This document shows, piece by piece, positions 19,693-55,334 of a stretch of DNA of 64,000 nt. A program made the translations under genes and the position numbers. The first letter of the stretch is position 1, and each line of letters begins with the position of its first letter. The stretch is from Marsupella aquatica (Eukaryota; Plantae; Marchantiophyta): NCBI GenBank assembly GCA_973895155.1, contig OZ316896.1, positions 3,944,738 through 4,008,737 of the forward strand. The letters are read 5' to 3'. The notes under the pieces were generated by a model. It was given only the letters and a program-made list of their open reading frames with translations, searched no databases and had not been told where the DNA came from.

Positions 19693-22216
19693 TCAAGATT
19701 TGAGATGCGTAGCAGTAGCGGTCTTGACATAGTCGTGTGCCTGTGCTTCGCTCTTGACTTGGGGCGTCGCACTCTTCTCACCCCTTAGCAGGGACGCCAG
19801 CAACATTAACTCCCCCTGCCATTCATTTAGACTAGTCTCCTTTGTATCAGTTTTGATGGGAATGTCGAAAGTTTTCGTGGCGGCCACAGTGGAAGATGGC
19901 GCGGCTGGAAGGGTCACTGTGCATGCAGAAGACACAGTCAACAACATCTTAAAGTTAGAAATCCGATACCATTTGGAGTTTCAAGTAGAAGAAGCGAGTA
20001 AACCCAGAGCTGATGTAAATTGCACTACTGGGTTTATTGAACAACTTTAACTATTTTAATCGGCAGCGTTCCACCATGCTGTACGAACTGCTGTGCAAAA
20101 TTTGAGGCAAGCCCATGATTCTATTGCTGCAGAGCATACTCGGAAATTGCAACAACAAACTTAGAAGTTGTGGGAGGGAAGGTCCATTCATCTAAGGCCT
20201 GGGTTGAGTCCGGTACAGACCTGGGCAATCGGTCCTTGGTGTAGTTCTGGTGTTGAGAACTCCGTCAAAAGTGCCAGCCCAAGCATCCCTCGCTGTCAAG
20301 AAATTTGGAAGATTGAACAATTTCTTGACTGTTGCGGAAATAGAAGAGTGCTCGTACTGTGAGGTCGGCGTTGGGCCTGTTGCCTTGTGGACCACTGCAC
20401 AACGAAAGCGCAACCAGCCATGATGAAATCCAATCTTTTTCAATTCAATTCCAAAAGTCTCGTCTGTGGGTACTCTGCACGTGCTATTGATTTTGCAGTA
20501 TAAATCTTTACCCCGGAACTGTGGCAGCACCATATCAATTAGAAGACTTGCAATAAGAATGGCACGAGAACTTGGATATTCTTAAGGAGACAGAACTGTC
20601 TCCAAGCACCGCCCTGTGAGCTCGTCCGAATCTATCCATAGTGTTGTTAAATTGACCATAATTCTCATTCTTTTCTTTTCATTAAGAAATAGCGGGAAAG
20701 GAAAAAGATTGAGTACATTAAGAGATATTGGACTAAAGTGGAAATCTAGAGTGCGACGAATTCTCCTAGAAACTGTTTAGCTCACATCCACCCCGTTATT
20801 GCAAGAATTTAAGCCATTTCAGGGTCGGAAGTACAGAATATCAGCTGAATTCAAGATTTCCTTCGTTCAAGTAATCCTTTTGTTACTACAATCATTCAAT
20901 CCAATGCACACCTATTAATACATTGAATCAGGTTATCGATGGAGAGAGTATTGGAAAGGCTAATTAGACAGATGCAGAATTCTCACTGTAGTGAGTATAA
21001 TAATAGGGAATTATCCCACGGGAGGAAATAGGACATTGGACGAGTTCAATGCAATGATACTCAAGTAGATATATCACATAATTATAACGAGAAAGGTGAC
21101 TTGAGGCGTTGTAAGCAATAGACAGCAAAAGGACCTGAAGAAAGCTGGCGAAAGAACTTTACCTACGCCTTTCTCAATCCAAGGGGAGACAATGATGGTG
21201 GGAATCCGGACACCAAGTCGGTCGAAGTTGAAGTAGTCTGGTGCGGGGCCCTTGATGCCATCCGGGTTGGGAACACCGGTTACAGGAGTGGGCACATGAT
21301 CGTAGAATCCACCATGCTCATCGTAGGTGATTACCCACACCATTTCATTCCACTGGGGGCTCTGACGCAGGATTTCGTAGATCTGCTTGAGAAGTTTCTC
21401 TCCATTGGTGACGTCGTGCGGCGGGTGGTTGTCGTTTGCTGGCAGCAGTGGCGGCAGATCGAAGTAACGCTGCTCGATCACGGTGTAGTTTGGGAGCTTG
21501 CCCGCTGCGGCATCGTTTTTGAAGTCCAGATCAAATGCTCTGAAATTGTCGATGTACTTTGGATTCCGAAGCCTACTGTAAAAGAGTGTGGCCGGTATGT
21601 TCTGGTAATAGATCCCGAACGTCAGCCCTGCCTCCTCGATGTTCTCAAAGATGGTCTTCTGAGGATTCCCCTCGATGAGGTCAATCGTGACGTTGCTGAT
21701 CAGCCCGTGTGAAGTGGCGGAGTGCACATAGAACCGGTTTGGTTGAGTGGAGCAAGGTAGCGAGGCGAACCATTTATCGAACACTGCAAACTCCGTAGCA
21801 AGGGCCACTGTGATGGGAATCGATTCTGGTTTGAATGCACTCATCACCTGTGCAGCGAACCCGGGTTTCAAGGCCTCTGCCGTCTGCGCAAAGCCATTCA
21901 TCGGAGGAGGATTGAGAGAGGTATCGGTGCCTCCGAACACCTGCGTCTTAATGACGTCGTAGCCATGGTCGGGGTCCGCCTCTGTCACATAAGGCTCAGC
22001 GTCTGTAACGTACACCTTCTGAGAGGTGGGATCAGAGACCTTAATGAGGTTGTACTCGTTTCCCTTCAGTCCATCGACATCGGGATGAACGCGGTTCAGG
22101 AATCCCAGAACATTGTCGAACGACCTGTTCTCCATCACCAAGACCACCACCGTCTTGATTTTCCCAGCCATCTCAACTTTTTGGACCGGTGTAGTGCTGA
22201 AACAGCTATTTCCCAT
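19693..22216 (-). CDS. NPC: Non-specific phospholipase C (phosphoesterase family), 3 exons: 22216-21163, 20394-20221, 19916-19693
   Basis: Motifs [66 protein letters not shown] and [12 protein letters not shown]. Both introns are phase 1 with GT..AG ends and preserve the frame. Confidence 0.93.
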
Positions 22217-33230: not shown

Positions 33231-33467
33231 ACCGTGGACATATTGATTCTAGGCTAATCCCTATATTTGAATGGATTTCATTTGGTTTATTTGACGGAGG
33301 CAAAGAGGTACCGTGGACATATTGATTCTAGGCTAATCCCTATATTTGAATGGATTTCATTTGGTTTATTTGACGGAGGCAAAGAGGTACCGTGGACATA
33401 TTGATTCTAGGCTAATCCCTATATTTGAATGGATTTCATTTGGTTTATTTGACGGAGGCAAAGAGGT
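33231..33467. repeat. 79-bp tandem repeat x3, apparently perfect
   Basis: ACCGTGGACATATTGATTCTAGG starts at 33231, 33310 and 33389. Confidence 0.97.
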
Positions 33468-34675
33468 GTACGGATTGTCTTTTTTATTTCCCGTATTCTC
33501 CTTGAAGAGAATCAACACAAAAACCTTAGCATGTTCTCGAATCCCTCCTGCAAGAGAGGGGGAGATGAATCTTAAGACATGAACTAAACATAACAAGAGC
33601 ACATTTAACATAGCCACTAGCCCAGATGCAAAACCTGGTGGTCTGGGTTTACTAAACTAAGACCAAAATGTTCTCAAAAAAGTAAAACATTCCACTGATT
33701 TGTCCTCTGCCGAACCTGATGGTTAGTGGCTGTTTGAAGACAATGACAAATGTTGAGTGCACACACTTACACCTGCCGCATCTTACATGAGTAAAGGACC
33801 TAACCAGAGACAACTTAAGGTAATGACACGTGGTGACTGCACAGACTAACACCTGCGCATAATAATATAGTAACACAATACAGTATCCGGAGAACTGTAA
33901 CGAAAGGTAACATTCGATCACAAAAGAAAACAGAGTATCCTGTCACAATACTTCACATTCCTCAATTAAGGAACAGGAAAGGCAGTCGATCACCTGTCAC
34001 AATGCTTCACATTTCTCAATCAAGGAACAGGAAATGCGCACCGTAGATCGGCGAAGCGAAAGGGAGGAAGAATGAAAGGAGCAGCATAACAATTGAAAAT
34101 TTCACCAACTTAATTGAGAATGTGGAATGTGCAATTGTATCGACACTCATGCACGACTCTTAGCTCACCGCCAACCATTGGCCTTTGCCCTTTCTCAATC
34201 ATGGAACAGGAACGGGGCACCTTAGATCGGCGAAGCGAAAAGGAAACGAATGAAAGGGCAGCATCATAATTGAAATCGTCACCACCTTCATTAAGAATGT
34301 GGATTGGATCGATACTCATGCACGACTCTTTAGCTTACCGGCAACCATTCGCCATGGATCGGACAAACTGCCAAGGTGGTTGTGACACTGGGAGTCTTGA
34401 CAAGCGAGGCAGTCTTGACAACCGAGGCAGGGGGCGTCACTCTTATAAGCTCTTACTTAGCTTTCATTCTTTTTGTATGATCAAGCCCTACTCTCTTCAC
34501 TTCTTGCATTCCGTTCCCAGTCAAGTATATGTTTGGTTGTAGCTCCTGAGCATCATATTTCGGGGATCCAGTAACTCACAGTGTCCAGTACGTTGGCGAC
34601 CAGAATCTCCTATTGAGCTTGCAGACGGTACCATCTGCTGTCACGCTCATCATCTGGTCATCTGTAGAATTTGCT

Positions 34676-35461
34676 ATGAAGACGGACGCCGATATTCTAG
34701 ATGACCAACAGTCGGGAGATTCTGATGGGAGTCAGTGGATTGATTTTACACCGGTCATTTCTTTCGTCCCCCCGAACATCAACGACACTCCGGAAATGCT
34801 GTTCATTACGCAGGTTCTATCTACATCCAGGCGTTTTGTTCGCCGCACAAACCCACTCCAGATTCTGGTTTATACTGATGGAGCCTGCTCCAACAATGGC
34901 AGAAGCGGAGCGATGGGAGGGTGTGCTTTCGTGTTCAAGGGTGGTCAATCTCCTGAGGAGATTAGAAGCGGGATCATCTCCTTTCGTCTCGAGGGCCGTG
35001 GCCCGACCGGAATTGCGTATCCGCATACCAGCAATCGTGCTGAGCTACGGGCTGTCATCGCTGCTCTCCAATTCAGGGCATGGGACGGTGAGGGATACAA
35101 TGAGCTAGTAATCGCCACTGATTCGGAATACGTGGTAAAGGGCGCCACGCAATGGATTGAAGGGTGGATAAGGAAAGAGTGGCAAACAAAGATGAAGACA
35201 GGAGTTAAGAATATCGATTTGTGGGAATTGCTCTTTAAGGAAGTACAGAAGTTTAAGGAGCGCCAGGAGCACCTTCGTGTGATGTTTTGGCGGATTCCTC
35301 GAGCTTTGAACACTACAGCTGATCAGGCGGCTAGGGAAGCGGCAGCGACAGGAGAGCCGCAAGACAACTTCTCCCCAATCTTGGAGATTAGTGCAGGCAC
35401 CATGCAGGATGGCAGCTTGGCTTCCAATTTGGGCCAATGTTCGTGTCGTCGTTTCCCATAG
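34676..35461 (+). CDS. RNase H1-family protein, fungal-like, copy 1 (upstream Cys/His motif out of frame)
   Basis: VYTDGACSNNG, TSNRAELRAVI, ATDSEYV, KNIDLW and WRIPRALNTTADQAA: D-E-D-D catalytic residues intact. ATG at 34676. Intronless. Confidence 0.8.
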   Translation: MKTDADILDDQQSGDSDGSQWIDFTPVISFVPPNINDTPEMLFITQVLSTSRRFVRRTNPLQILVYTDGACSNNGRSGAMGGCAFVFKGGQSPEEIRSGIISFRLEGRGPTGIAYPHTSNRAELRAVIAALQFRAWDGEGYNELVIATDSEYVVKGATQWIEGWIRKEWQTKMKTGVKNIDLWELLFKEVQKFKERQEHLRVMFWRIPRALNTTADQAAREAAATGEPQDNFSPILEISAGTMQDGSLASNLGQCSCRRFP

Positions 35462-36785
35462 TTTTGATAGCTGTACATACAGGTTTTGTGGTACGTCTCG
35501 AAAACTGATAAGAGTTACGTAGCATAAGAGTTGAGATTCCCCACATTGGTTTTCATCTTCGAGCCGTGGAGGAATGTCAGACTATATGGTGAAAGAGATG
35601 TAATTAGGATATGAGTCACCCAAGCAACTCAATATGAAGTCTCTCGACTTCGTGATGGTGGCAAATCCCATTTTTGTACAACTTCGTCTTTACGCCATGA
35701 TGCTGTGTATGTACCAGTTGACAATTTGATTGAGTTCTGCCTGTGAATACTTAACTACTCGTCTGCTCAGTCAAAAACCTTGAGAGCAAATAAGTCTTTC
35801 TTGACGAATGAGAAGCATTATGAGCTCGTCTATGTATTTCAAATGTTTGCAATTATCTCCTCGCCCTCCTCTACAGAGCCCTTGTGAAAATATTCGCTTG
35901 AAATCAAAATCTCAAAGTTCGTAGGTGGCCTTATTTTATTTTAACTTCCGGGAGTCATTCAAGCTCTGAGACATGGAACGAACATTTTGACATGATAGCA
36001 GCTTGCTGGACTTTTGTGAAATTGGCTGAAGGACGTCAATTGTATCCAGACCTGCAGGCTTCTTTGCAGCTCTTTCGCGCACTAGAATTAGTTCTTCGAG
36101 TGTTGCAATCTATAACCCCATCGTTCTTGTTTTCATCTAAGAATTCAAAAGAAAACGAGTAAAGATATTGGAAGCCCAGGGCATCTCTTCGCGTAGTAAA
36201 AACCAGGAGCGAACTCCAGAATTATAATTGCTTACATTGCATTACTAAACGAAAAAGGCTAACTGAAAATCATTCCGACACTTCGTAATCGCTGCTGAAT
36301 GGCATCCTGGCTGGTTAATATTCTGATTGACATCGATCCCATCAAATTGTGTAATTCATTACATCCAAAGTCTCATTGAGCGGAAACTGATTACAAAATG
36401 CTCACCCCGAAATTTGTCATTGTAGCCCGACATCATCGAAGTTCACTTAGTCCCTCCCGACCATAACCTTCAAGCCTCATCTTGCCTCTTGCAACTGTTT
36501 TCTAAGTCGAATTTCACCTTTTCCAACTTTGAAAATCTCACACAAGTATTTTTCCTCTTCTGTCAAGATCCAAAATAGCCCTGAACCTTGCTGCAACCTC
36601 ACCTCAATTTTCCATACAAAAAAAAATCACACCAGGAATCACAATAGAAAGCTCCACGCAAATATAGAGTATGCTTCAAAACCCACGTTTGTTGCGTCTC
36701 AATGTGTTGATTCTGTCACATTGATTAGGCTCACGGGCAATCCCCATCGACAAGAGCTCACTCTGAGGGCTCGCAATGGTGCCCT

Positions 36786-37796
36786 CTACTTGTCTCGTCT
36801 CCATAGCCAAGCTTCGAACTTCTCTCCTTGCAATTTCCTTGGGATGGCCTCGACAGACAGCGCCCATCTGTTAGACAACCCGAACAGACGATGCTGTGCT
36901 GGATTTGCAACGAAACACTGCAGTTGGGCGATTGATGCGCTATCATCCCCTTCACACAGCAACTTCCCCTCATATGCCCTCTCTGCAAACACTCTCGCCC
37001 TTGCCTGGTCTCCGCAAGCAATCGCAATTTTAAACGCGTCATAGTACAGCCTATGTAATCGCGAATCTGTAATGTTTTCTGCCTCCAGCAGTTTGAGCAG
37101 CGTATAAGCATCGTCAAGACACTGGTGTGGACTGAAAAGAACATGGGATCCATGATCGTCAATGACGTTGTCGAGCAGCTGGATCTGGCTCAAGCGCTCA
37201 TCGCTAATTGCTCTTTCAACCAGTGGGAGAGAGCAGAGCTCACAAGTGCACTCGAAATTGAAAAAATTCTTCAAACGTCGACTCCGAGTTTCAAACGGTC
37301 CTCCAATAGTGTAATCAATTGTTATCTCCTCGCCCGCCCTTATGCGTCTGAGCGCATGGATAGTTTCTTGGCCTATGGTCGCGTTCCAAGTATGTATGGA
37401 ATTCGCAAGACACGCATGATTGATCCTGGATATCTGAACAAACAATCCACCGTCTAACGAGCCAGCGCCTAGTGGAAGGGCGTTTGTCCTAAATGTGCCG
37501 AACAACGGGTGGAAAATGCCTGGAGAACTATTGTGAAGAGATAGGAAGGCCCTCTGGTCGTCTTTGGAAAGGACACTGAGCTTGCTAGCAATGTACTTTC
37601 CAACTACTTGCTCTGACGATGCATATCTTAGATGCAATTCAAAGAGAGGCTTTTCAGAGATGATTCGTGCGCCTCTGGGGATGTCTTGCGCTGCAACAAG
37701 TCCTTGGCCTTTTCCGGGGAGATACTCCACAGTGTAGAGCTTTGAAATTGTGTGATCCGTTGTAGCTAAGTTCTGAGGTTTGCTGTGTCCGTCCAT
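36786..37796 (-). CDS. SET-domain lysine methyltransferase (fungal Set5/SMYD-like, no MYND insertion)
   Basis: PGKGQGLVAAQDIPRG, SRINHAC, GEEITIDY, post-SET FECTCELC and a helical C-terminus. Intronless; likely ATG at 37796. Confidence 0.85.
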   Translation of the reverse strand: MDGHSKPQNLATTDHTISKLYTVEYLPGKGQGLVAAQDIPRGARIISEKPLFELHLRYASSEQVVGKYIASKLSVLSKDDQRAFLSLHNSSPGIFHPLFGTFRTNALPLGAGSLDGGLFVQISRINHACLANSIHTWNATIGQETIHALRRIRAGEEITIDYTIGGPFETRSRRLKNFFNFECTCELCSLPLVERAISDERLSQIQLLDNVIDDHGSHVLFSPHQCLDDAYTLLKLLEAENITDSRLHRLYYDAFKIAIACGDQARARVFAERAYEGKLLCEGDDSASIAQLQCFVANPAQHRLFGLSNRWALSVEAIPRKLQGEKFEAWLWRRDK

Positions 37797-39602
37797 CACA
37801 GAGCAGATCAAATGCGATTATATACACTGAAGATCACTAGTCTAACTAGATTGTTACTCTGCAGGTAGCTTGCAATCCACTTCAATCTGATTTGATGATA
37901 CAAGGCTAACCTGAGCTTACCACTCTACACATCTGCGAATCTTGAAGCTGACGTGCATATGTAAGAACTGAAGGTGCGTGCTACAGAAATATCCAGACGG
38001 GCCACTGAACTGGAGACGAAATGAGACCGTGGATTTTGTACTGGCAGCAGGCTAATCACCACCCTCGAGTACGAGCGCACAGCCACCGATAGTAGACTGA
38101 GTTGATTCAATCTTAAAGGCAGGCTCGGGCTATACAGACTAGAATCTGGCGTTGTTTTGAATGTCCGACCAAACAGGTAGAGTACCAGTATCAAAGGCAT
38201 GACGCATAAATTGAGCAACTTCCTGGGACGATAGTCGTTGTTCTCCGCAGGCCTGAAAGGTAGAGCTCCCGTAACATGGATTGGCTTCTGCTAGGAGTCC
38301 CGACCATCATTACGTACTACAGCCGCTTGTCGTCGTCGCGAGAGACTGGATCGGTGAAGTCCCAATCATCGATGTGAGCTAGCAGACTGCGGAGGCGGTT
38401 TCCTGCTGATGACGACCAGGATCGTAATCTAGGGGTGGAGGCGCATTCCCGAAGATGATTCCAATATGAATGACGACCAGGGTACGGGTGGATGATTGGA
38501 TTGGTACCCAGAATATTGTGACGGCTGAGGCAGTTCCTGATGATCATGAGGTCTAATGATGATGACCCGTAATTCCAGTAAATAACCTTAGCCCGTCATT
38601 GTTCAATCAATTCGTCTGTACTTGAGTGAGTAAGACTCAAAATGACCCGCAGCTCCATTTCTTCCAGAGCCCGTTTCGTTTCCATTTCTTTCCAGAGCCC
38701 GCAATATCTGATCGATAGCCTTTCTAGGCTTTCCATGCGTTTCCAAATGCATCACACCAGTGTCTCCACCAGCTCCAGATATTGGCCCACATTCTAGGAG
38801 GTTTCTAAAAATTACATACGATTCTGTAGACAAAGATCGCCGTCAACGTTTTCAGAGGAAAACGTTAGTAAATTAATAGCACATGGATTACGAGACTCCT
38901 CGAAGCAATACTGTATTTCTTCCTGTATTTCTAGTTCAGCTGCCTGGTCTCTGGCATTGATACCTAGCGAACGAAGGTCTCGGAAATGTGGATGACTCTT
39001 TGTCTTCAGAAGGGAATGCGGAAAGGGAATGCGGAAATGAGTAATATCACTACCAATTGGGTGGGTTCGTTCGAAACAGCCACACAAATGTTAATACCGG
39101 GCCTCACATCTTCCGACTAGCGGCGAGCGATGACCGGAATCATCCATCAAACAGTGAACAGTCCGTTCAAAGCTTGCCGCAATCTATCAAATCATGATTA
39201 GATTTTGAGATATCACACGAAGCATCTGGAGTACGGGGGTGGGATCGAAGAATTATGTACGGCATTCATCATGAGAGAATGATGGCACTGTGCCCGAGGT
39301 GCTTTTTGAACTGATGCTTTTTGACGCTGGAAAACTATTTACTCCGTCCCATCAATCTCACATCACTGTAGCTACACTCTCGGCTCAAAAGCTACAAGGG
39401 ACATGGATGAACCGGACATAACAGTAATTGGTTGAAGGCTCAAAGTTTCAAATAGAGCGGGATTGGAATTGGCTGATGCAAAATGTACGCAAACTCCCAA
39501 CAGAGAGCACTTACCAGTTGAACAGCATTGCAAATCGTTCTCCCTACTTTGGATGCACCCGCTGCACCTTGGCTGCAAAATCGAGTTGGCCTGAGTAAAG
39601 AA

Positions 39603-40781
39603 ATGTCTACTTCCGAGAAGCCTGCCGTTCTGTGCACCATTTGCGACTCTCCTGGAGTTTCCCTTTGCGCCCAGTGTCGCAGTGTCCGCTACTGTTCGAA
39701 AAAATGCCAGCGGATCGATTGGCCTACGCACAAGCTCCTATGTCGCTCCTTCAGCGACTTCCGCGTGCGACCAGGACCTACGTTCAGGAGAGGAATCCTC
39801 TTCCCTGTTCGCGAGGAAACCCCCAAATTCATCTGGTTAGAAATCATGAGTGATCATGACGACAGTGACGATGAGTACTGTCCGACACCAAACCTGCGTG
39901 GACTACTGGGACCTGGAGAACCCATAGGTAGTTGGCTGTATTGCCAAGAAAATACTTATCGGAATCGGAAGCTGGAGAACACTCTTGTGGTCGCACACAG
40001 AGATAACTTTTTGAACGACGGATCGCTTCCCAATCAGAGCACCAGCAAAGCCACGAGAGGAGAGCATGCACACAAGTGGGCAGGACCTATGGTCGCATTT
40101 CGAATCGACGGCCTGGACTTCTTGCACTCATATGCTTACGGTGACATGACTCTCGACGACTTTCGTCATACTGTTGATTTCTTCGTGAGCTACTGCAATG
40201 ACTACTACGCGAACGACAGCTTGACCGGAGTGGCAAAGGTGAAAGGGGTGCGAATAAGCTGCAATGCCGACAAAGCAATGTTCGGAGCGGACAAGTACAT
40301 CCCTGTCGATGTGGAAGATTGTCATGAAGTGTTTAGGATGGAGGAGCCCATTGGAATTTCAAAACTGATCGAGCTTCCAATCTTCGTGCGAAAATGTCCT
40401 CCACACCAAGTCTGGAAGAACGGCTCTACGGCCAACTACACCAATACATCAGCAAGTTGGCTTCACCTTGACCTCGACCCTAAGAGCGCCCATTTCGGTT
40501 GGATCCCATTTCGATGGAACGAAAGAGTTGGCAGTGTCCTAGCAGCGCGAGTGGATCGAAAGGCGCTATATCCCCACCACATGGAAGCACTATGCGACTT
40601 CTGCCAGTTTACTTTGCAGCCGTTGATTGAAGACTCATTCGGTGCAGGGCTAGTGGAGAGGACAAGAGATGATGTCATGCAAGAGATGACGAAGGCTAAA
40701 TTCAAGGAGTTTTTCCGGGACTACAAAGCTAAACAGAGGGATCCTGCTTGGATGGCTACACCATGTCCGTATGACATTTAA
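39603..40781 (+). CDS. MYND zinc-finger protein, fungal-like
   Basis: CTIC..LCAQCRSVRYCSKKCQRIDWPTHKLLC, then RDNFLNDGSLPN, WAGPMV, DFRHTVDFF and GSVLAARVDRK. Intronless; ATG at 39603. Confidence 0.85.
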   Translation: MSTSEKPAVLCTICDSPGVSLCAQCRSVRYCSKKCQRIDWPTHKLLCRSFSDFRVRPGPTFRRGILFPVREETPKFIWLEIMSDHDDSDDEYCPTPNLRGLLGPGEPIGSWLYCQENTYRNRKLENTLVVAHRDNFLNDGSLPNQSTSKATRGEHAHKWAGPMVAFRIDGLDFLHSYAYGDMTLDDFRHTVDFFVSYCNDYYANDSLTGVAKVKGVRISCNADKAMFGADKYIPVDVEDCHEVFRMEEPIGISKLIELPIFVRKCPPHQVWKNGSTANYTNTSASWLHLDLDPKSAHFGWIPFRWNERVGSVLAARVDRKALYPHHMEALCDFCQFTLQPLIEDSFGAGLVERTRDDVMQEMTKAKFKEFFRDYKAKQRDPAWMATPCPYDI

Positions 40782-41434: not shown

Positions 41435-41878
41435 TCAGGCGACGACTGTTTGATGCTCTTGTTCTTCTGACGATCCAATTTGCGCTAAGGGATCGGTCTT
41501 TTTAAATTGGTGAGTTCCAGCCGGACCTGCCAGATCCTCTGCTTGTAGAGTTGAGATTTGCTCTGCACACTTTGTTTCCGCTGTCGAAGCCAATTTCTGT
41601 TTTTTCAAACTTCTCGTTTCCTGCTCAAGCTGATGGTTTCTCTTCCGGAGATCGGATCCGCTCTGAGCAGTTTGTATCTTCAAAGTCGTTAGTTCCTGCT
41701 TAAGATTAGCAATACTTGTCTCATGCTCCATCCTCCTTTCTGCGCTTTGTCTCTCCAGAGAGTCGACTCTTTCCTGCAGACAATCCTTCTTGTCCATAAC
41801 AGCTAAGAATCTTTCGATCGAAACCACACCCGCTGTCTGAAATCCGACATGAAACTCCTCCCGCTCTGTGTAATTCAT
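41435..41878 (-). CDS. Short coiled-coil protein of unknown function
   Basis: Heptad-rich (LQERVDSLERQ...IANLKQELTTLK). A diverged paralog lies at ~57160-57540 in the duplicated block. Confidence 0.4.
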   Translation of the reverse strand: MNYTEREEFHVGFQTAGVVSIERFLAVMDKKDCLQERVDSLERQSAERRMEHETSIANLKQELTTLKIQTAQSGSDLRKRNHQLEQETRSLKKQKLASTAETKCAEQISTLQAEDLAGPAGTHQFKKTDPLAQIGSSEEQEHQTVVA

Positions 41879-42399: not shown

Positions 42400-42925
42400 T
42401 TTTTTCACTATTCGAATTCGAGGCAAATAACAAAACGTTTCGTTCAATTAAAACGCTTATTCGAATCAACAAACTGTCGATCCGGGTTCTGAACTTTACC
42501 TGTTCTTGGAGTGGTGGGGATGAATCAATGCTGGAAGAATCGGTCGATGAACGACGAGCTCTAGTATTTCCATCTCTGTTCCAATTCGAATTCGAGGCAA
42601 ATAACCGAACGTTTCGTTCAATTAAAACGCCTATTGGAATGGACAAACTGTCGATCCGGGGTCTCAACTTTACCTGTGCTTCAAGTGGTGGAAATGAATC
42701 AATGCTGAAAGAATCAGTCGACGAACGACGAGCTCTGGTGCTTCAATCTACTGTTCCTATTCGAATTCGAGGCAAATAACAAAGCGTTTCGTTCAATAAA
42801 AACGCCTATTCGAATGGACAAACTGTCGATCCGGGTCTGAACTTTTACCTGTTCTTCAAGTAGTGGGGATGTATCAATGCTGAAAGAATTGGTCGATGGA
42901 TGAACGACGAGCTCTGGTGATTTAA
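42400..42925. repeat. ~175-bp tandem repeat x3
   Basis: ATTCGAATTCGAGGCAAATAA...CGTTTCGTTCAAT at ~42410, 42584 and 42759. Confidence 0.9.
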
Positions 42926-45925
42926 TACTCTCTTCTTTTGCAGAACTGCGCTACTTGCTCGAGGTTTCGGTACCGAAGAACGTCCGATTTTGTTGGGGCG
43001 GATCACGGTTGAAGGTAGAAAAGCGAGAGATTGAGAAGCCCAACAATCCCATCTAACGTTTTTCTTTTCAAATCCCAATTAACGTCAATTAATAAACTAG
43101 CCGTAAGTTTGGCGTGCCCTGTAATAAACACGTCAAAATGTGTTAGTATACCGCGTGCAGTCACTGATCGAAAGAAAATAAGGAGTGTTATCATGGTATG
43201 CAGTGTCATATTTTGATGTGTAAATTACCTGGACTCTTAAGTTACTATCTTAGTTGCCTCGTCTTACCCGCAAAGTTCAGGCGTATCATAAACTTGTACA
43301 GAGTCTAAGGATTTCTGGAGGCCTCTACTATATCCATTATTCATGTCCATAAAATCCAGCTTGAACCAGTGTAGATTTTTGGAGGCCTCTACTATATCAG
43401 TTAGGGGTAGTTGGATGATTTTTACTGCTCTTCCCTTATCAGGGCTTGCCATGTAGGTAACTTTATATCTCATTATTTTAAACCATGTTTTGCGGTGTAT
43501 TTGTAGGGTTGAAGTTGAGCACAGTGCATAGCCGCGGGTGTCAGAAGTACCGGCTGTATACACGATTGCACCAGATCTATGAATCCCAACGGTTTATCTA
43601 GGGTACGACCACTTAACGTATATTTAGGGTCCTCCATATGCTCCATTAGGGAGCATATCAGGACCATAAACATATACATAATTTCATGTACATAAATCCC
43701 TATCGTTAACGTTTTTCCTGACTGTATTTGCGTATCATAAGGACTGTCTGGGCTGGAGTTCCAGACTGAACCCCGCTCCCAGATAGCTCAAAAAGCTTCC
43801 AGGCTGCCGCCCCTACTGCCATTGCTTCTCTTTTCTTTGTTTTCTGGTCACAGGATTACAGCCTATCAACCCTGTGCCCAGACTTTCCTTGATAATCTCA
43901 CAACACAATTGTGATGATATATGGTGTAATATGTCTTTCCATACCAAGACAAACCTCCTTATGTTTACATCAATGACTGAGTGTTATTTCTAAATAAGTA
44001 TTATGTGGTTGTCAGTTTTTGATGTGTAATTATCTTGGCAATTAGAGCTTTGAGTAATTTTGTCCCTGCAAAAGCAATGCTGAGACCACGGGGAAGCAGA
44101 TCGCGGTCAGCGCACGCTTGTGTTCTAGCAGGGATGCAACAGGAGCCTAGCATCCATTTTCCAACTGTTACCATCCATTTGCAGTTGGTTTCTTGCATGA
44201 TTGAATTTAAAGTGGTCAGTTTCAAGCTCACAGCCCATGAAGATGACCACAGACATCCAAGTCCAATTGGGCTTGACTTCTCTATGTTTCACCTTCAAAT
44301 TAAACATTACATGCTTTTAGATTATAAACTAAGTAATCACTACAGCCACTAAATGTTCATCTTCCGTTGGTGCGTGTAACAAGCCAGGAAAGTAAACAAA
44401 GTCTGTCTAAAACCATTACATAAAGTAGGTAGTAAGATTCCTTAATTCCTTTTCTCCCTTTCTGTTTTGATTCTTTTTCCTGCCATCTTAGATATACAAT
44501 AATCAGGGGCATAATCTTATTCAAATTCGAGAGTGTGTAATTGTTGTTGAGTGAATCATTCTTGATTGTGCTACTTTGTTTGAGGATTTGCTGTTGGTTA
44601 TGGTCAACAATATCAAGCTTAGAAACATCAAGTCACTCCACATTTGGATTCACATTAGCAGCAATCTAAGGTCAGTGGCTCACTTAAAACCATTTGAGAC
44701 CAGAGGTCTTTCAACGTTGAATTTTGTACTAGGGAGTTACTTTCTCTTGTTCCCCATATTGTTTGCTGATCTTTTCCACTCTAGCTTTGAATATACTAGT
44801 CTGATTGCTCGTTTGTCCACACAATATAGTTGGTGACTCACTCTCCCCTCTTCCTTTTCCTCAACCCAGAGTCATGCATGTAGGGCTTTGCTCTACTAAT
44901 AGGTATGAAGTATAGCTTTGTGCTAATTGTTTTTTTGTAAGGGGAAATCTTTCAAACCTTACAGAAAGGAAATAGTCAGTCACAACAGTTGAACTCAAGT
45001 CCTATCCGTCTCCACTCAAGTGAGCTAGCACACAGCCATGGGGCTCTGGGCAGCTTTGCGCTGAGTTTTGTACATAGAATAGATAGATTACACTGAAGGT
45101 AATTCACACAGTCATACTCCTAGAAAGAAAAAGAAAAGTAACAAGAAGAGAAGCTCACTCGCATTTTGTAATGTTGGGCCCTGGATGCTGGGCACCAAAT
45201 TGGCTGGAGTTCACATTGGTAATTCTTACCAAGTTGACAGGTTTACATGATTGGGTTTGACTTGCTCTACTGGTACTTGGATTGGACGGAGAGTTTAGGG
45301 ATGCATTTTAAGTAGGGTGGGAGGAAGTCTATTTTCTGGTGGTTCCAATGTGTTCTTGTTGGATAGGAGTAGGCCTTGGGTGCTAACTATTTATGGGTTT
45401 TTGGTTTTGTTGTCCATTTCTCCCTTAATATGATAGTCGTTAGCTGGTTTAGTGCTGGTTTAATGCTTTGTTGTATTCAAGTTTTCCCACTTAGTATATA
45501 TTATTTGGGGTTACTTTTTCTCCTCCCACTCTTTCAGCTTGCAGGCTCAGCATCCTTTGAGTAAGTAAGGGCTTTGTCCCTCTTTTTTGAGAAAAAAATG
45601 TTGGGCACCAAAGGGCTGCCTGCCAGTGGATTTTAAAGCGGGACCAAGTAGGATTGGACAAACCACTGACGACAGTGATAGATATCCTGGGGAAGCAAGA
45701 TGTACTTATAAAGATGAGTAACTAAGGAAGGTGGCAGATTTTGTCTAATTTTGTCCCCTCAATTCTGAGAGAGATGAACCCTCAAAATGAAAATTGTTAG
45801 TTAAATGCACCCCATGAGGTTTTGGGTAGGTTTAAGGTCTATCACTCATGGGGTCTCAAGTAACACTTGTCATTCTGGGGGTCCATCAAATATTTCTCTC
45901 AGTTTTGAGTGACTATTATAATTGC

Positions 45926-47988: not shown

Positions 47989-50980
47989 TTTTTTTTTAAT
48001 TTTAAATAAATTTATTTCACGAAAAAAAACCCCAAGAAACCCCACGGCGAGGACCAGAGGGGGGCCAAGGGGCAAACCCCAGCAGCAAGAAAAAGAACCC
48101 CGGCGAAGGCCGCAGCAGCACCGGCGCCCAAGAAACAAAGCCCCAGGGCCCTAAGTTAAGACTTTAGGGCGGGAATGAGTCCTAGTCAACCACCTACTAA
48201 TGGCCAAAAAATGAATCCACCTACAATCCCACCTCCAGTGCACAAAATGGCAGTTCCAATTGATGGGCTTCCAATGAGAGAAAGCAAAGGCTCTAGGTTC
48301 AGAATAATCCCACCTAGTATACCAATTCCTAAAGAAAAGAGACCTTCTCTTAAGTTGCTTACTATTGTGATCAGAGTATGAGGTGCTGCCACTACAGGCT
48401 TGCCAACCACCACCCAACCAAGGGGAGGTGAGGCAGCCCATACCAATCCTACCAATAACCCAAATTCTAGGTTGTTCTTGCATGGTTGCTGGTAATCGTG
48501 TTGTTGTGCCGGTCAGTGGCTCTAGTGACCATGGTAAGAAGTCCATCTCTGGCCTTAGTGATAGCAGATTTCTTTCTGAGAGTCTTCGTTTGTTGAAGAA
48601 GAATGTTAGCATGCAGCATGGCGCTGTTAAGGATGAGATGCAGAGGAAATCTAGTAGAGGGTGCGTTGAAAAATTTTGGGCATCTTTCAAGCCAAAGAGT
48701 ATTGAGCATTTCCGCCAGCAGAAGCATTTGCCTTGGATTTCTCTTCTGGGTCCGGATGGCAGTGTCAATCTTGCCAAAAAGCGAGAACCCAACAGCTTTG
48801 TCAAAAACTGTATCGTGTGCAACGTGTTCAAGGAGATCCCACCTTTGAGTAATAGCCGGGCAATCTCTGAACATGTGATCAGAATTCTCCAATGTAGTAC
48901 AGCTGCAATTGGAACACAGGCCATTGTTGAGACCCCACTTAAGAGCGCGAGAATTAGTAAAAAAGCCAGCATGTAAAACTTTCCAAATAACAAGTCTGGC
49001 TTTAGGTGCACTCCAGCCTCTCCACAAGTGTTTCCATCGCTGGTGCCACATTGCGGTGGTGTCCAGCAAGTGCCATCTACGATTGAGATTGAGGATTGGC
49101 ATGTTGCGATCCCTGTTCATGCTGGCCCAAATGTGTGTGGGGAGATTCCAGCCATGTTGTTCGCCATCAGCCCATTCCCAGTTCCATCCTGTTAGGTTAG
49201 CAAGGCGGACATCAGCTTTTCCTTGGCTCCCAATAAGGATATTCAGCAGGCTATTCAAGGCTAGTACCCCCCGTGGCCTGGTGGTCCTGATGTTACCTTG
49301 CATTTCAGCCAAAGTCTTCCATTGGCCAGATTCTCTATTCTGAGCATCATGCATGTCGTTAACAGTTTGTACCTGCCAATTTGCGAGAAGACTCTTCAAC
49401 TCGTAGTTGTCTTGTCTGGACAGTTGTAGCTGCTTGTCAAGAAGACGCAAGAGTTGGTCAATTGAGAGAGATTGAGGCAAGGTACTGGCTGAAGGTATGA
49501 ACCTCAGATTATTACATGCCTTGTCCCATCCGTTCAACAGACAGTTCAGTATGGGGGCATTGGGGATTCGAATTCCCGGGTCAAGCAGCAGAGCAGCATC
49601 CACCTCCCATCTTCTTCTCTCCTTTTTGTGAGGCCCAAGGCTGAGCGTCCGCCTGATTAGAGCATGTGCCATCCCAACCCATGCAGTGTCATAATCAGTG
49701 ATCAATTTGTGGATGTTCCTCATCTTGAGAACCTGGGCTTGTAATTCAAAGGGCCTGATTGCTAACCCTCCATCTTCAAAGGGTCTGGTGATGATATCCC
49801 AAGCAATGAGTGCTTTCTTTGGCACTCCATCCTTATTTTGGCCCCACAGGAAATTTCTACAGATTCTCTCCAACTGCTGGAACCCTCGCTTCTGTAGATT
49901 GAGGACCATAAGGTGGTACACTGGAATAGCTCTTAAGACGTGTTTCAGGAGGACAACTCGTCCAACAAGGCTAAGGAAGCGATTTGACCAATGTTTGAGC
50001 CGTTTACGAACTTTTCCAAGAAGGAACTCTAATTCCTGTGTGGGTTTCAAGGATTTACCAATTGGGCAGCCTAGATAAACTTGCATATCTCCAATGCCTG
50101 CCACTTTACATCTGCAAGTAGACATCCAATCCTGCTGTGGTGATCTGTCCATCTGGATAATGATAGATTTATCCAGGTTCAATTGTGCCCCTGATATCCT
50201 TTCGTATGTGCTCACTGTAGCGTGTGCCATCTGAAATTCGCTTTCAGATGCATGAAGAAACAGGCCTGTGTCATCAGCAAACAGTTGGTGCAGCAATTTT
50301 TTCGTATGATCAATCCCCGGATCAATCCTAATGCCATGGAGGTCACCAATTCGAACCTTCTCTTCCAGCAGACACATAAGCGGTTGTGTGGAGAGGGCAA
50401 ACAGCAAGGAGGAGGCTGGGCATCCCTGTCTAACTCCTCTCTCAAGCGGGATTTCCTTAGTGAAACCTCCATTCACATGGACCTTGGAGGTGGCATTTAC
50501 CACAAGTCCCTTGGTTAGTTGGATGAGCTTTGGATGGAAGTTCATCTTCTCCATGGTATCCCATAAGAAGGTGTGATTGACCCGGTCGTAAGCCTTGGAA
50601 AAATCAAGCTTCAGGAATATACTTGGTTGCTTGGTAGCCTGCACAAACTCGGTTCCAACTTTGAAAGCGAGAATATTATCAAGTATACTTCTACCACTGA
50701 TGAAGCCAGTCTGTTGAGAAGAAACCAGCCCAGGAACAACAGCTTTCAATCTGTTTGAGAGGATTTTAGCTGCAAGTTTGTGAGCAAAGGTAAGCATAGT
50801 CAATGGTCGCCAATTCTTGAGCCATTGTTTATTGCCACCCTTTGGTATCAACTTGATGACCCCCATTGAAGCTTTGGTTGTGAGTAATCCATCTTCCCAG
50901 TAAGCTTGAACCATCTTACAAATGTCTCCTTTCATCCAGCTCCAACAGGCAATCACCACCTATGGAGTGACCCCATCAAG
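47989..50980 (-). mobile_element. 5'-truncated LINE (L1/Tx1-like) retrotransposon with 3' UTR and poly(A)
   Basis: ORF2 remnant starts at the RT N-terminus (LDGVTP*). AATAAA (~48011-48016) and an A-tail (T-run at 47989-47997 on +). No clear TSD. Confidence 0.88.
48467..50959 (-). CDS. LINE ORF2 reverse transcriptase plus zf-RVT (endonuclease missing)
   Basis: NWRPLTML, QTGFISGR, LDFSKAYDRV, GVRQGCP, LFADD, YLGCP, GGLAI and the CxxC-x8-HxxxxC knuckle. Confidence 0.92.
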   Translation of the reverse strand: MVIACWSWMKGDICKMVQAYWEDGLLTTKASMGVIKLIPKGGNKQWLKNWRPLTMLTFAHKLAAKILSNRLKAVVPGLVSSQQTGFISGRSILDNILAFKVGTEFVQATKQPSIFLKLDFSKAYDRVNHTFLWDTMEKMNFHPKLIQLTKGLVVNATSKVHVNGGFTKEIPLERGVRQGCPASSLLFALSTQPLMCLLEEKVRIGDLHGIRIDPGIDHTKKLLHQLFADDTGLFLHASESEFQMAHATVSTYERISGAQLNLDKSIIIQMDRSPQQDWMSTCRCKVAGIGDMQVYLGCPIGKSLKPTQELEFLLGKVRKRLKHWSNRFLSLVGRVVLLKHVLRAIPVYHLMVLNLQKRGFQQLERICRNFLWGQNKDGVPKKALIAWDIITRPFEDGGLAIRPFELQAQVLKMRNIHKLITDYDTAWVGMAHALIRRTLSLGPHKKERRRWEVDAALLLDPGIRIPNAPILNCLLNGWDKACNNLRFIPSASTLPQSLSIDQLLRLLDKQLQLSRQDNYELKSLLANWQVQTVNDMHDAQNRESGQWKTLAEMQGNIRTTRPRGVLALNSLLNILIGSQGKADVRLANLTGWNWEWADGEQHGWNLPTHIWASMNRDRNMPILNLNRRWHLLDTTAMWHQRWKHLWRGWSAPKARLVIWKVLHAGFFTNSRALKWGLNNGLCSNCSCTTLENSDHMFRDCPAITQRWDLLEHVAHDTVFDKAVGFSLFGKIDTAIRTQKRNPRQMLLLAEMLNTLWLERCPKFFNAPSTRFPLHLILNSAMLHANILLQQTKTLRKKSAITKARDGLLTMVTRATDRHNNTITSNHARTT

Positions 50981-52579
50981 TCATTTTAATCCAATGGCAC
51001 TCAAAAGTAACATCCTCATCCCAAGGCATGCGAGTCATCCCCACATCCCTATAACACCATGACACTTTATTTTTGTCATCTAACGGTCTGCAAAAAATGT
51101 AAGATGATCCATTGGCAGGGAATCATTCAAGCCCATTGCACTTTTCATAAACAAAAACTAAAAAGAGCAGCATTGAGTATTATAGTGTTAGATGATGCTC
51201 TGATGACAGGACCTGAATACATTTAAAGTTAAAGAGATTCCTAGTTTTACTTATTTTAGTAAAAGCAAAGGAAAATTTTCATAACGTGTGTGCTTCATTC
51301 TTGTCCAATAATGCCCTGAGAATTACAAAGGGGAAAATCACAAAGGACATTATGGTAAGGTAAAGGACTCTCTCAAGGGCATTGTAAAGGATAAAGCTCT
51401 ATAGCAGCTTGCCTACCCAAGATACTTTCAGTGAGAGGGGGCTATAGCCAGCTCTGTTTTGTTCCCATCTTGTTTTTTCTGAGAAATGGCGTTAAACACC
51501 TAAAAATAGACACACAAATTTCTTCATAAAGAGTTAAAGAGATTTGTAAGAATATACACAAACTTTTTACAGAAAAGGGCCAAACAGAGTACAAAAAAAT
51601 AACCAAAAGAGGTCCCAAGTGGACAAAACCAAATGCAAACGAAGTGAGCAAAATGAAACCTCTAAGAACCAAGAAAGGAGAACTAAAACAATCGCAAATG
51701 GACCGAGGTACTTATCATTCCTAGCTAGTGAGGTTAATATCTTAAGGTCAAGTGTCGAAACTAAATCGGCAAGTGGGACTGAAATGTCCTCTAGGGGGGC
51801 TAGCCGCTGCAGATTTGTAGGGTGTTTGAGAGTTAAGATTATTAGAGTATTCTCATATTTGCAAATGTAGTGTGCAACTTGTTGAGGCCCTTCAAATGTC
51901 TGCCACATGCAAACACAAAAAGACGAGGATGGCTTAAAGACAAAGAAAAAACAAAGGAAAGAAAGGAAAAGAAGGACTTGTTGGGCGCCGTTATTGTTAC
52001 TGCCATGGCGGCGCAGGATATGGATCAGGGGCTTTTTTTATTGGGAAAACTGAACTCCGTAGGAGCCCAGCAAAAAAACGCGAAGAAAGAAGAATCTTCC
52101 AGCCACATTTCCATCTTTGGCCAATACCAGGTTTCAAGATCTGACTGCTATGCGCATTTCTAGGCGAATCTGGCAGAAGAGCATGGATACAGCCGACAAG
52201 AAGTTCGCAGCCAGATTCTCCTCTCTGCTGAAGGATGGCAGGAGCCAATGCGGCAACGGTGGAAAATCCTTAGAAGAAAACATCGTCAATTCATTCGTTC
52301 GCTCATTCATGCATTCATTCATCACTTCATGATTGGCTTGAGAATTCGCCTCATCTAGAACTTCACGTTGCCGAGACTACAGCTTAAAGCTCATCATCTC
52401 ACCATCAGCCATTTATATTCGCTGTTGTGATCGTACCTTCGTGGAGAACTCCTCTCAAGCTCATCATCTCACCATCTGTTAAATTTTCTGTTTTGCGTAC
52501 TTCATTCTCTTGCAGGACTCGACGAACCCCGATTCGCATGAAATTCTAGAAGTCGAAAATTCGAGCCAAGCTTGTCCGA

Positions 52580-53326
52580 ATGATGATTCGCGTGGAGCAG
52601 TCTGGTTCGGATGAAACCCCACCAGGCAACTCGAATATGGCGCAGAAGCCAATCGATTTCACGCCAGTCACGCGTTTCATCCCTCCGAATAGCGATGACA
52701 CACCAGAAAAGCTTTTCACTCGAGGCACTACCAGGCACATTAACGTTACAGGCTGGAGATTTATCCGTCGCACGAACGACCGCCAGATCCTGGTGTATAC
52801 TGACGGAGCCTGCACCAACAATGGCAAAAATGGAGCGATAGGTGGCTGTGCTTTCGTCTTCAAGGGTGGTGCATCTCCTGATGAGATTAAAAGCGGGAAC
52901 ACCTCCTTTCGTCTCGAGGACCGTGGCCCGACCGGAATTGTGTATCCTCATACCAGCAATCGTGCTGAGCTACGGGCTGTCATCGCTGCTCTCCAATTCA
53001 GGGAATGGAGCGGTGAGGAATACAATGAGCTGGTTATTGCCACTGATTCGGAATACGTGGAAAAAGGCGCCACGCAATGGATTGAAGGGTGGGTGAAGAG
53101 AGGATGGCGAACAAGCATGAAGAAAGACGTTGCGAACAGGGATTTGTGGGAATTGCTCTTCAAGGAAGTCCAGAAGTTTAAGGAGTGCCCATGGGGAACC
53201 CTTCGTGTGATGTTTTGGCGCATTCCTCGAGGTTTGAACACTCTAGCTGATCAGGCGGCTAAGGAAGCCGCAGCGACAGGAGAGCCTCAAGACTCGTTCT
53301 GTCGAATCTATGGGGTTCGGTGTTAG
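52580..53326 (+). CDS. RNase H1-family protein, fungal-like, copy 2
   Basis: VYTDGACTNNG, SNRAEL, TDSEY, ANRDLW and WRIPRGLNTLAD. The upstream Cys/His motif is degenerate (HHLTIC* at ~52460-52482). Confidence 0.8.
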   Translation: MMIRVEQSGSDETPPGNSNMAQKPIDFTPVTRFIPPNSDDTPEKLFTRGTTRHINVTGWRFIRRTNDRQILVYTDGACTNNGKNGAIGGCAFVFKGGASPDEIKSGNTSFRLEDRGPTGIVYPHTSNRAELRAVIAALQFREWSGEEYNELVIATDSEYVEKGATQWIEGWVKRGWRTSMKKDVANRDLWELLFKEVQKFKECPWGTLRVMFWRIPRGLNTLADQAAKEAAATGEPQDSFCRIYGVRC

Positions 53327-55334
53327 GCTCTCTAAAGTCGATTTGTCAGGTAAGGTGGACGAAAGCTCCGGTGAACTAAGGATGTGTAGTTCGCTATACC
53401 GCACTTTCGTTTCGGCAGGATTGTGCTTGGTCGATACCTTTAAAGGCAAGGGCATGGGTGGTCTAACCTCCCCCCTGCGCTGTGTTTGCTTTTTGCTAAA
53501 GAATGTATGGAGCAGACATGTAGATTAAAAATTTATCAAATGTTAGGATCATCGGAGAACGCTCCCGGTGCAATGGCAATGAACTTGGGGTCACAGTCAG
53601 GAGAGAGTGCACTTGTATCGTACAAGTTATTGACTAGGATGCCGTTTTTTGCTGCACATTGAAGAATCAAAATAGCTTTTGTAGACAGCAATGTGCAGCA
53701 GCTGGTGTTCGTAGCAATCTTAAATCTTCGGAATACATGATATCAACAACGAAGCGAGAATACGAGTCAATGTATCGATGCAAGTAAAGCAAATGTACGT
53801 GAGAACACAGCAAATGTACGTGAGAACACTATGGTAGAGCGTGATGAGTAAAACGTTTGCGGCCCATAACCTGTGACTAAAGCATACGCGCTCAAACATA
53901 GGAAAAATACAAATGCACAATGCAGTGAATAGAATGAGAGACCCTCAAGTAGAGGCGCTCCATCTGAGAAAAAACAAAAGGCGCAATAGCAGCCCAAGCG
54001 ATCAGCACAAACAGAGGTGGCTAGCACAAACAGGTGGCGCGGCTGCCAGTACACAAAGGGCTGGCCGCGTCCCGCTTGTCACAGTCAAGACGTTAGGCGC
54101 TGGCAGGTAGATTTAATTCAAATCCTTAAACTAGATCATCGCTATTTGATGCTGATTGAATTTAAATCTGACTAGTCTAAGTCTGAGGCTAATATTCTAT
54201 CTGACATGTAAAGCTAGTCCTAATATTAAGATCTTACTGTCACTAGTCTGAATGTCGGGAATCAGTATGAGTCATTCACAGTGAGAACTGTTTTGTGCAG
54301 GCATCAGCATGGTACCTGGCACTTGGTCAAAATGGAGACAATTGTCTAAATTGTGGTTTCGTGATCTCCCACGATTTCGATAACTGTTTTATTAACTGTA
54401 TTGTTGTAATACTTCTTGAAGACTGACGAGTTGCGTACTAGTAGTTTAGATTCTCTAGAGTAATTTGTATCCTTGTGCATCCCAAGTAATGTACCGAAAT
54501 GGTCGAAGAGATGCAAGTAGGTCATCCAATCTGTATGACATCCCTCGCGTTAGAGATGGTGGCAGGTCCAATTTTCTACGCGTTGATCTCTACATCGTAA
54601 TGCCCTATGTATCCCGTGAATACACGTCGGGAAGTAAACTTATTTTGCTCAGTCGGAATGTCAATTTGAGATTCGCCAGTGTTTTGTTGCCATAGAATTT
54701 AATTATGACAAGCTTGAATTATACGCTATACTTGTGCACCTGTTTTTGTAGGTCTAATGGAATTGAGTGCAAAGTCTCAGCAAAGTCACAACTCTGACGG
54801 AGTTACGAGTGGGTCTTGATTCATGAATTGCGAAAGCCTAATTCATCATGGTTAGATGCTGAACAGCAATCGTCCAGTCCAGCAGTGAGACGACTCATGT
54901 AACGGCATCAAAGATTCAGAGCTAATGACGCTCTGCCCTCCCTGTCCTTTCACTGCTACGATATATGGACTGTGTTCCCTTCCCTCAGACAACTTACTGT
55001 CCACTCCTTTTGTCCACTCCTTCTGCCCTCGAACGATTTCAGAGATTAGCATTCCAGGAAACAACAAACAGCATAGGGGCACCAGAAGGACAACACGTAC
55101 TGCTCGCTCTCACTCTCCATCACAGTAGCCCAAACCGATACTTCATAGGCTCAAAGACGCGAAGTGGGTGGGTGCGAATTGGGTCTGATTAAGGGTGATA
55201 CAATTGCACGGGCTGATCTCCCACTTCCCAACAGAGAATGGTCACCAGTTGATAGGGAGCATTGGAACAATCGTTCTTGTTCTCGTTTTAGCCACTGCAC
55301 CTCGGCTGCAAGAATTAGCTCCAGCAGTAACTGA

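What the first reader, a model, noticed from the sequence alone, without database searches (positions are those of the whole stretch)
34580..40781. Cluster of intronless fungal-type genes (RNase H, SET, MYND) in a plant chromosome: candidate multi-gene horizontal transfer
From recall, all three proteins resemble families of filamentous ascomycetes rather than plant homologs: RNase H with an N-terminal CxxHxLxxCxxC motif and WRIPR..N..AD, a Set5-like SET with an NHAC/CxCxxC layout, and MYND plus the 'RDNFLNDGS..N' domain. They are interspersed with a plant LINE and lie near plant genes, which argues against contamination. Three unrelated fungal-like genes side by side suggest block transfer or an HGT-accumulating island.
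Basis: inference. Interest (0 to 1): 0.75.

Follow-up and report, generated by a model that had tools for sequence, protein, structure and literature searches.

The report
Fungal gene cluster in a liverwort
A plant chromosome, likely a leafy liverwort's, carries a tandemly repeated cluster of three genes (an RNase H, a SET-domain protein and a MYND zinc-finger protein) whose named relatives outside the liverwort Calypogeia are all fungal, so they were likely taken up from fungi long ago, probably as one block, and several copies have since decayed.

Summary
The three ORFs are real and fungal-type. Named homologues are Calypogeia fissa (55-74% identical) and otherwise only filamentous ascomycetes (44 of 46 named RNase H rows, 21 of 23 SET, 1 of 5 MYND). 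The finding is the first unit of a tandem array: three RNase H copies plus a remnant, one SET, and one intact and one broken MYND. C. fissa carries the same three families with near-consecutive accessions on two multi-megabase scaffolds. Read contigs from three studies hold the region, at about the depth of the neighbouring plant gene, so contamination is unlikely. RNase H copies diverged under purifying selection (dN/dS 0.36-0.52). Each family's liverwort copies form one supported clade; SET leans toward Helotiales (755 of 1000 bootstraps), the order of Calypogeia's rhizoid symbiont. Transfer as one block is likely but unproven: no fungal locus showed the synteny, and a shared donor was neither shown nor rejected. 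Corrections: the CxxH motif is out of frame with the RNase H ORF, and the LINE lies between units. Fungus-derived regions are known in moss, so this is a new member of a known kind.

The parts
34639..34674 (+). CxxHxLxxCxxC zinc-binding motif of RNase H copy 1, out of frame with the catalytic ORF
   Evidence: in frame in C. fissa P0009/P0010 and fungal P0025/P0058
34676..35461 (+). RNase H copy 1: catalytic domain open with D68/E123/D149/D216; 5' part and C-terminal tail frameshifted
   Evidence: a one-base indel variant at 35387 in runs X2 and X4
36786..37796 (-). Intact intronless SET-domain gene (336 aa), predicted lysine methyltransferase with post-SET CxCxxC
37975..38174 (-). Inverted RNase H remnant (63-64% DNA identity to the other copies)
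   Evidence: HMM i-E 2e-4
39603..40781 (+). Intact intronless zf-MYND gene (392 aa) with a ~340-aa C-terminal region typical of an ascomycete family, fold unassigned
41435..41878 (-). 147-aa ORF without Pfam match, part of the duplicated unit (broken counterpart near 57162-57776); origin not tested
42408..42935 (.). Three 174-bp tandem repeats, also in unit 2 near 58.0-58.5 kb
47991..50984 (-). LINE insertion (RVT_1 + zf-RVT ORF 48467-50935) between units 1 and 2; CpG-depleted (o/e 0.33)
   Evidence: (contigs skipping 47991-50984 in 4 of 4 runs)
52580..53326 (+). RNase H copy 2: catalytic ORF intact with own Met, shortest branch; upstream zinc motif interrupted by a stop
55330..56512 (+). MYND copy 2, pseudogene with many frameshifts
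62496..63385 (+). RNase H copy 3: ATG and zinc motif present, frameshifted before the catalytic domain
21074..22216 (-). Plant anchor: first exon of a non-specific phospholipase C gene
17975..18529 (+). Plant anchor: DUF565 gene

Best explanation
The RNase H, SET and MYND genes sit in a plant chromosome, likely a leafy liverwort's, and were likely acquired as DNA from a filamentous ascomycete, probably as one linked block, before this species split from Calypogeia fissa; the block was then duplicated in tandem and is now losing copies. Shown: the ORFs, the tandem units of roughly 15-18 kb, the lesions, dN/dS below 1 between RNase H copies, and the same three families as neighbours in C. fissa. 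Inferred: direction fungus to plant (family spread over many ascomycete classes against one named plant genus), one block (three unrelated families within 6 kb in two species), and a rhizoid-colonising Helotiales-like fungus as the likely route. Predicted, untested: the SET protein would methylate lysines, the RNase H domain would cut RNA in RNA:DNA hybrids, and the MYND finger would bind a partner protein. SET, MYND copy 1 and a shortened RNase H copy 2 are the likely working genes here.
For: Named homologues: RNase H 44 fungi and 2 C. fissa among 46 named of 120 listed (952 hits); SET 21 fungi and 2 C. fissa among 23 named of 120 listed (424 hits); MYND 4 C. fissa and 1 fungus among 5 named of 8. 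Atlas clusters nearest to MYND and RNase H are mostly Ascomycota. MYND relatives lie beside HET and SesA genes. C. fissa accessions: RNase H CAM6111448/454, SET 456, MYND 458/460 on a 9.44-Mb scaffold; MYND CAM6096834, RNase H 836, SET 837 on an 18.97-Mb scaffold. Liverwort rows form one clade per family: SET 99/97, RNase H 97/92, MYND 100/99. In run X1 the contig over the NPC gene has depth 17 and those over the cluster 14-16, and high-copy repeats interrupt the array. Runs of a second study match stretches of the cluster with 0 differences; a third study holds a diverged version. dN/dS 0.46, 0.52, 0.36 with dS 0.27-0.41 (Fisher p 2e-4, 2e-3, 4e-5). SET sister group is Helotiales-containing in 755 of 1000 bootstraps; C. 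fissa is colonised by Hyaloscypha hepaticicola (10.1101/2025.04.01.646537).
Against: No fungal synteny: 0 of 28 MYND-relative loci (191 kb, most short, 31-58% identical) carry RNase H or SET relatives. The nearest RNase H relatives are an unnamed metagenome clade (84/80), and joining liverwort and named Helotiales RNase H costs 7 log-likelihood units (AU p 0.057). The 97% quick-tree support for SET with Helotiales fell to 49/88 under the mixture model. The MYND clade has a long stem, with the only named fungus at 29% identity. A root placing liverwort RNase H outside the fungal family is not rejected (AU p 0.3). No plant RNase H1 or SMYD/ASHR sequence was in any tree. No contig spans NPC to RNase H, and no repeat is shared between the window's left and right parts. 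All three RNase H copies here have a broken 5' part.
Confidence: 0.55

Rival explanations
1. The genes are true fungal transfers but arrived separately, from different fungi or at different times, and gathered in a repeat-rich island that tolerates foreign DNA.
For: Different nearest relatives per gene. Unnamed Logan rows sit with the liverwort RNase H and MYND clades (P0011, P0018; P0003, P0004) but none with SET. C. fissa has further MYND copies on two other scaffolds. No fungal synteny.
Against: Three independent insertions within 6 kb need a hotspot or later clustering (inference). A common donor is not rejected, and fungal sampling near the donor is thin.
Confidence: 0.3
2. The families are not fungal gifts: they were inherited from an old eukaryotic ancestor and lost in other plants, or reached fungi and liverworts from a third, unsampled source.
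For: The rooted test does not place liverwort RNase H inside fungi (AU p 0.3).
Against: SET is as close to fungal proteins (55-61%) as to its C. fissa paralogues (55-59%), too close for a split as old as plants and fungi (inference). No other plant is named among 74 named rows. Viral contigs hold no MYND or SET relative and only generic RNase HI.
Confidence: 0.08
3. Fungal contaminant DNA, for example from the rhizoid symbiont, was mis-joined into the plant assembly.
For: Calypogeia species host ascomycetes (PMC7062687). No single contig spans plant gene to cluster.
Against: Depth like the plant gene in X1; presence in runs of three studies; the cluster on two multi-megabase C. fissa scaffolds with one pair 94.7% identical; a LINE and high-copy repeats inside the array; clades made of liverwort rows and 40-45% divergence from any named fungus.
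Confidence: 0.03

Closest known systems
Fungus-derived genomic regions of Physcomitrium patens (Sun et al. 2020; seen only as summarised in PMC7911284 and PMC11228847)
   Same: Several fungus-specific gene families clustered with mobile elements in a bryophyte chromosome.
   Different: Those hold HET-domain, HopQ1-like and a conserved fungal gene in a moss; this one holds RNase H, SET and MYND genes in a likely leafy liverwort, is shared by two species and is tandemly repeated.
Bryophyte HGT catalogue (PMC12513842; passages read)
   Same: Continuous microbe-to-bryophyte transfer; acquired genes short, intron-poor and in repeat-rich regions.
   Different: [quoted passage not shown]
Fungal-derived MTPSL terpene synthase clusters of Marchantia (PMC12448838; passages read)
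   Same: Fungal origin followed by local tandem expansion and copy-number change in a liverwort.
   Different: One family with a known metabolic role; here three unrelated families without a tested role.
SMYD/Set5 lysine methyltransferases (best PDB match human SMYD2, E 2e-7)
   Same: GxG, RxNHxC, Tyr and post-SET CxCxxC motifs.
   Different: No MYND finger inside the SET domain; the MYND finger is in a separate neighbouring gene with an unrelated C-terminal region.
RNase HI (PF00075)
   Same: Four acidic catalytic positions kept.
   Different: Belongs to an ascomycete subfamily with an N-terminal Cys/His motif, which is detached in all three copies here.

Membership tests
RNase HI (PF00075) | Pfam score above cut-off and D-E-D-D catalytic residues | tested here: met
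   86.7 and 86.8 bits against 25.8; D68, E123, D149, D216 in copy 1; that these are the catalytic four is recalled
RNase HI (PF00075) | Cleaves RNA in RNA:DNA hybrids | not testable with these tools
   needs an assay
Ascomycete RNase H subfamily with N-terminal CxxH..CxxC | Groups with this subfamily apart from generic RNase HI | tested here: met
   99/100 branch against five viral RNase HI rows; a sixth, partial outgroup row fell on the wrong side and three were left out as too short
Ascomycete RNase H subfamily with N-terminal CxxH..CxxC | Cys/His motif in frame with the catalytic domain | tested here: not met
   0 of 3 window copies; met in C. fissa P0009, P0010
SMYD/Set5 methyltransferases | SET motifs GxG, NHxC, Tyr, post-SET CxCxxC | tested here: met
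   positions 28, 126, 162, 183
SMYD/Set5 methyltransferases | MYND finger inserted in the split SET domain (recalled) | tested here: not met
   Pfam finds SET only; residues 44-113 hold no Cys
Ascomycete zf-MYND + RDxFLxDGSxPN family | N-terminal MYND finger and full-length similarity over the C-terminal region | tested here: met
   atlas score 0.98 to Ascomycota clusters, recognition below the tool's threshold
Fungus-derived genomic region in a bryophyte | Several unrelated fungus-type families clustered with mobile elements | tested here: met
Fungus-derived genomic region in a bryophyte | Physical link to host genes in raw data | tested here: inconclusive
   equal depth and stepwise contigs, none spanning; same cluster on large C. 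fissa scaffolds
Fungus-derived genomic region in a bryophyte | Rooted nesting inside fungi | tested here: inconclusive
   AU p 0.3 for RNase H; SET and MYND trees unrooted
Fungus-derived genomic region in a bryophyte | Expression in the plant | not testable with these tools
   no RNA holder listed
Single block transfer | Same gene order in a fungal genome | tested here: inconclusive
   0 of 28 loci of distant MYND relatives, most under 10 kb
Single block transfer | Same donor lineage for all genes | tested here: inconclusive
Starship cargo | Captain tyrosine recombinase (DUF3435, recalled) at the element's edge | tested here: inconclusive
   no such Pfam match among 33 window ORFs scanned; the array runs off the window's right edge

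The most novel reading that the evidence does not exclude
One piece of chromosome from the Helotiales lineage of ericoid-type rhizoid symbionts (Hyaloscypha and kin) entered the germline of a leafy liverwort ancestor, handing the host a lysine methyltransferase, an RNase H and a MYND adaptor that were kept, amplified and selected: a multi-gene symbiont-to-host transfer of chromatin- and nucleic-acid-acting genes that can be tested in the C. fissa-H. hepaticicola laboratory system.
Probability: 0.25. Interest if true: 0.78.

Novelty: new member of a known kind. Interest (0 to 1): 0.55.

Why it matters
How DNA crosses from fungi to plants is unknown, and many claimed cases fail on re-analysis (PMC12711439, abstract and passages). 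A three-family cluster shared by two liverwort genomes is a better handle than single genes: it can show whether transfers come as chromosome blocks, whether the intracellular symbiont is the donor, and how such blocks are amplified and lost. C. fissa has axenic cultures, a long-read genome and a reconstituted symbiosis, so expression and function are directly testable.

Tried and rejected
No whole genome was held, so genome-wide copy counts were not possible. The profile search of protein representatives never ran, so MYND sampling rests. Viral origin: no MYND relative (0 of 32 stretches), no SET relative (0 of 22), only generic RNase HI at E about 1e-24 or weaker. Composition gave no signal: GC 0.44-0.49 in the cluster; GC3 0.50-0.56 against 0.40-0.65 for plant genes. 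No RNA holder listed. Two AlphaFold models of the MYND protein (pLDDT 65 and 67); only the first was searched, and it matched MYND fingers only (best Z 5.4); the C-terminal region was not folded alone. Two of four MYND dN/dS pieces straddle frameshifts and were dropped; the other two gave 0.58 (p 0.18) and 0.46 (p 0.045). A bacterial promoter scan is irrelevant here. Earlier scan findings: none. Exact look-up of five window proteins: 0 of 5 in the collection. Literature: 'Calypogeia + horizontal gene transfer + fungi' gave 5 papers, none on this by title or abstract start; 'horizontal gene transfer + MYND + bryophyte + fungi' gave 0. Sun et al. 2020 is not held; the spreadsheet of PMC12513842 was too large to read, and bioRxiv supplements are closed.
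Full report
Observation. The three ORFs exist at the stated places and pass Pfam cut-offs: RNase H 34676-35461 (+), SET 36786-37796 (-), zf-MYND 39603-40781 (+). The quoted motifs are present. The CxxHxLxxCxxC motif at 34639-34674 is one frame off the RNase H ORF, with no intron to rescue it. The LINE lies 7 kb downstream, at 47991-50984.

Anatomy. The finding is the first unit of a tandem array. Self-comparison aligns 39495-42756 with 55226-58410 (73%), 44300-44919 with 59438-60113, and three RNase H copies at 34.7, 52.6 and 62.7 kb (81-84%), with an inverted RNase H remnant at 37975-38174. Unit 2 has no SET gene and its MYND copy carries many frameshifts. All three RNase H copies have a damaged 5' part: a frameshift and no ATG at the expected place in copy 1, a stop in copy 2, a frameshift in copy 3. 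Contigs of runs X1 and X2 match the 5' parts of copies 1 and 2 with 0 differences, so these lesions are not assembly errors. The catalytic domains stay open, and dN/dS between copies is 0.46, 0.52 and 0.36 at dS 0.27-0.41: they were under purifying selection after duplication. Copy 2 has the shortest branch (0.037 against 0.22-0.24). The genes are not CpG-depleted (0.84-0.94), unlike the LINE (0.33).

Host. Upstream lie a plant non-specific phospholipase C and a DUF565 gene. The best named hits for all three families are Calypogeia fissa proteins at 55-74% identity. None of five window proteins is in the collection exactly. The host is therefore likely a leafy liverwort related to, but not the same genome as, the annotated C. 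fissa; the plant genes were not used to place it.

Relatives. For RNase H, 46 of the 120 listed hits (952 in all) name an organism: 2 C. fissa and 44 ascomycetes. For SET, 23 of 120 (424 in all): 2 C. fissa and 21 ascomycetes. For MYND, 5 of 8: 4 C. fissa and Rhizodiscina. The fungal class labels are recalled. Nearest atlas clusters are mostly Ascomycota. Metagenome loci with MYND relatives carry HET, SesA and other eukaryotic genes, and eight of them are single ORFs too, so the lack of introns is likely inherited. Viral contigs hold no close relative.

The cluster is shared. In C. fissa one 9.44-Mb scaffold has RNase H CAM6111448 and 454, SET 456, MYND 458 and 460; an 18.97-Mb scaffold has MYND CAM6096834, RNase H 836, SET 837. 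Near-consecutive accessions imply neighbours (inference; the DNA was not seen). The two RNase H partners are 94.7% identical, which fits the recent genome duplication reported for C. fissa (Ks 0.05; 10.1101/2025.04.01.646537, first part and passages read). The two SET paralogues are only 52% identical, so the array is old. Two more MYND copies lie on other scaffolds.

Contamination. Five runs of three studies hold the region. In X1, which may be the window's own sample, the contig over the NPC gene has depth 17 and the three over the cluster 14.8, 16.4 and 14.1; in X2, from another study, 31-42 against 47-68. Contigs break at high-copy repeats, which also lie inside the array; X5 holds a diverged version around 53-60 kb. 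No contig spans plant gene to cluster, and contig depth is a rough measure. Together with the C. fissa scaffolds this makes a chimera unlikely.

Trees. Liverwort rows form one clade in each family: SET 99/97 (34 rows), RNase H 97/92 (37 rows), MYND 100/99 (22 rows); these sets are subsets of the hits, chosen to keep named and top rows. SET: a quick tree of 87 rows gave 97% for a sister clade whose named members are Hyaloscypha, Cudoniella, Acephala and, by cluster, Cadophora; under the mixture model this fell to 49/88, with a Helotiales-containing sister in 755 of 1000 bootstraps. RNase H: one unnamed Logan row joins the liverworts at 100/100, and the next sister is an unnamed metagenome clade (84/80; still unnamed); forcing it with named Helotiales gives AU p 0.057. 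With viral RNase HI as outgroup the liverwort rows belong to the fungal subfamily (99/100), but a place outside it is not rejected (p 0.3). MYND: unnamed Logan rows join the liverworts behind a long stem. No plant homologue was available for any tree, so direction rests on distribution and on SET being as close to fungal proteins as to its own paralogues.

Block or island. None of 28 loci of fungal MYND relatives carries an RNase H or SET relative, but they are distant and mostly short. Three unrelated families within 6 kb in two species favour one block by parsimony; differing nearest relatives favour serial gains or thin sampling. I put horizontal origin at about 0.9 and a single block at about 0.6 of that.

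Function. SET has GxG, NHxC, Tyr162 and post-SET cysteines and matches SMYD2 weakly, but lacks the inserted MYND finger, so it likely works like a SMYD-type lysine methyltransferase without being one. RNase H keeps four acidic residues. The MYND protein's model matches only MYND fingers. Nothing here tests activity or expression.

What is known. Fungus-derived regions with several families and mobile elements were described in Physcomitrium patens (Sun et al. 2020, seen only through passages of PMC7911284 and PMC11228847). Bryophytes gain microbial genes continually (PMC12513842, passages). Calypogeia species host ascomycetes, and Hyaloscypha is the confirmed partner of such liverworts (PMC7062687, passages). 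My searches found no paper on this cluster, but the unreadable spreadsheet of PMC12513842 and closed bioRxiv supplements may list these families.

Verdict. A real, old, fungus-derived three-family cluster, tandemly repeated and partly decayed, in a likely leafy liverwort: a new member of a known kind, interest 0.55.

Noticed in passing
window 42206-43078 (-) and 57963-58586 (-): The 174-bp repeats keep a frame (58 codons) and lie upstream of the 147-aa ORF on the same strand; possibly a degraded gene duplicated with the unit. No Pfam match.
   Followed up: partly
window 2376-4124 (-): Three adjacent short ORFs (176-188 aa), two with weak F-box matches below cut-off, next to 416- and 293-aa ORFs without Pfam match; may be a transposon- or virus-derived gene set.
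   Followed up: no
window 10540-13526 (+): Broken transposase-like reading frames with DUF7869 (E 3e-23).
   Followed up: no
window 47991-50984: Contigs in 4 of 4 runs join across the LINE, so it is likely inserted in another repeat whose other copies lack it.
   Followed up: partly
window 22000-41999, runs X2 and X4: These runs hold both identical and diverged versions of single-copy stretches, as a polyploid or mixed sample would.
   Followed up: no
proteins P0019 and P0276: Two RNase H relatives of the unnamed sister clade have longest contigs of 63,300 and 63,295 bases, perhaps tandem copies in an unsequenced soil organism.
   Followed up: no
proteins P0129, P0148, P0256: The Helotiales-clade SET relatives carry an N-terminal C2H2-type finger that the three liverwort proteins lack.
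   Followed up: partly
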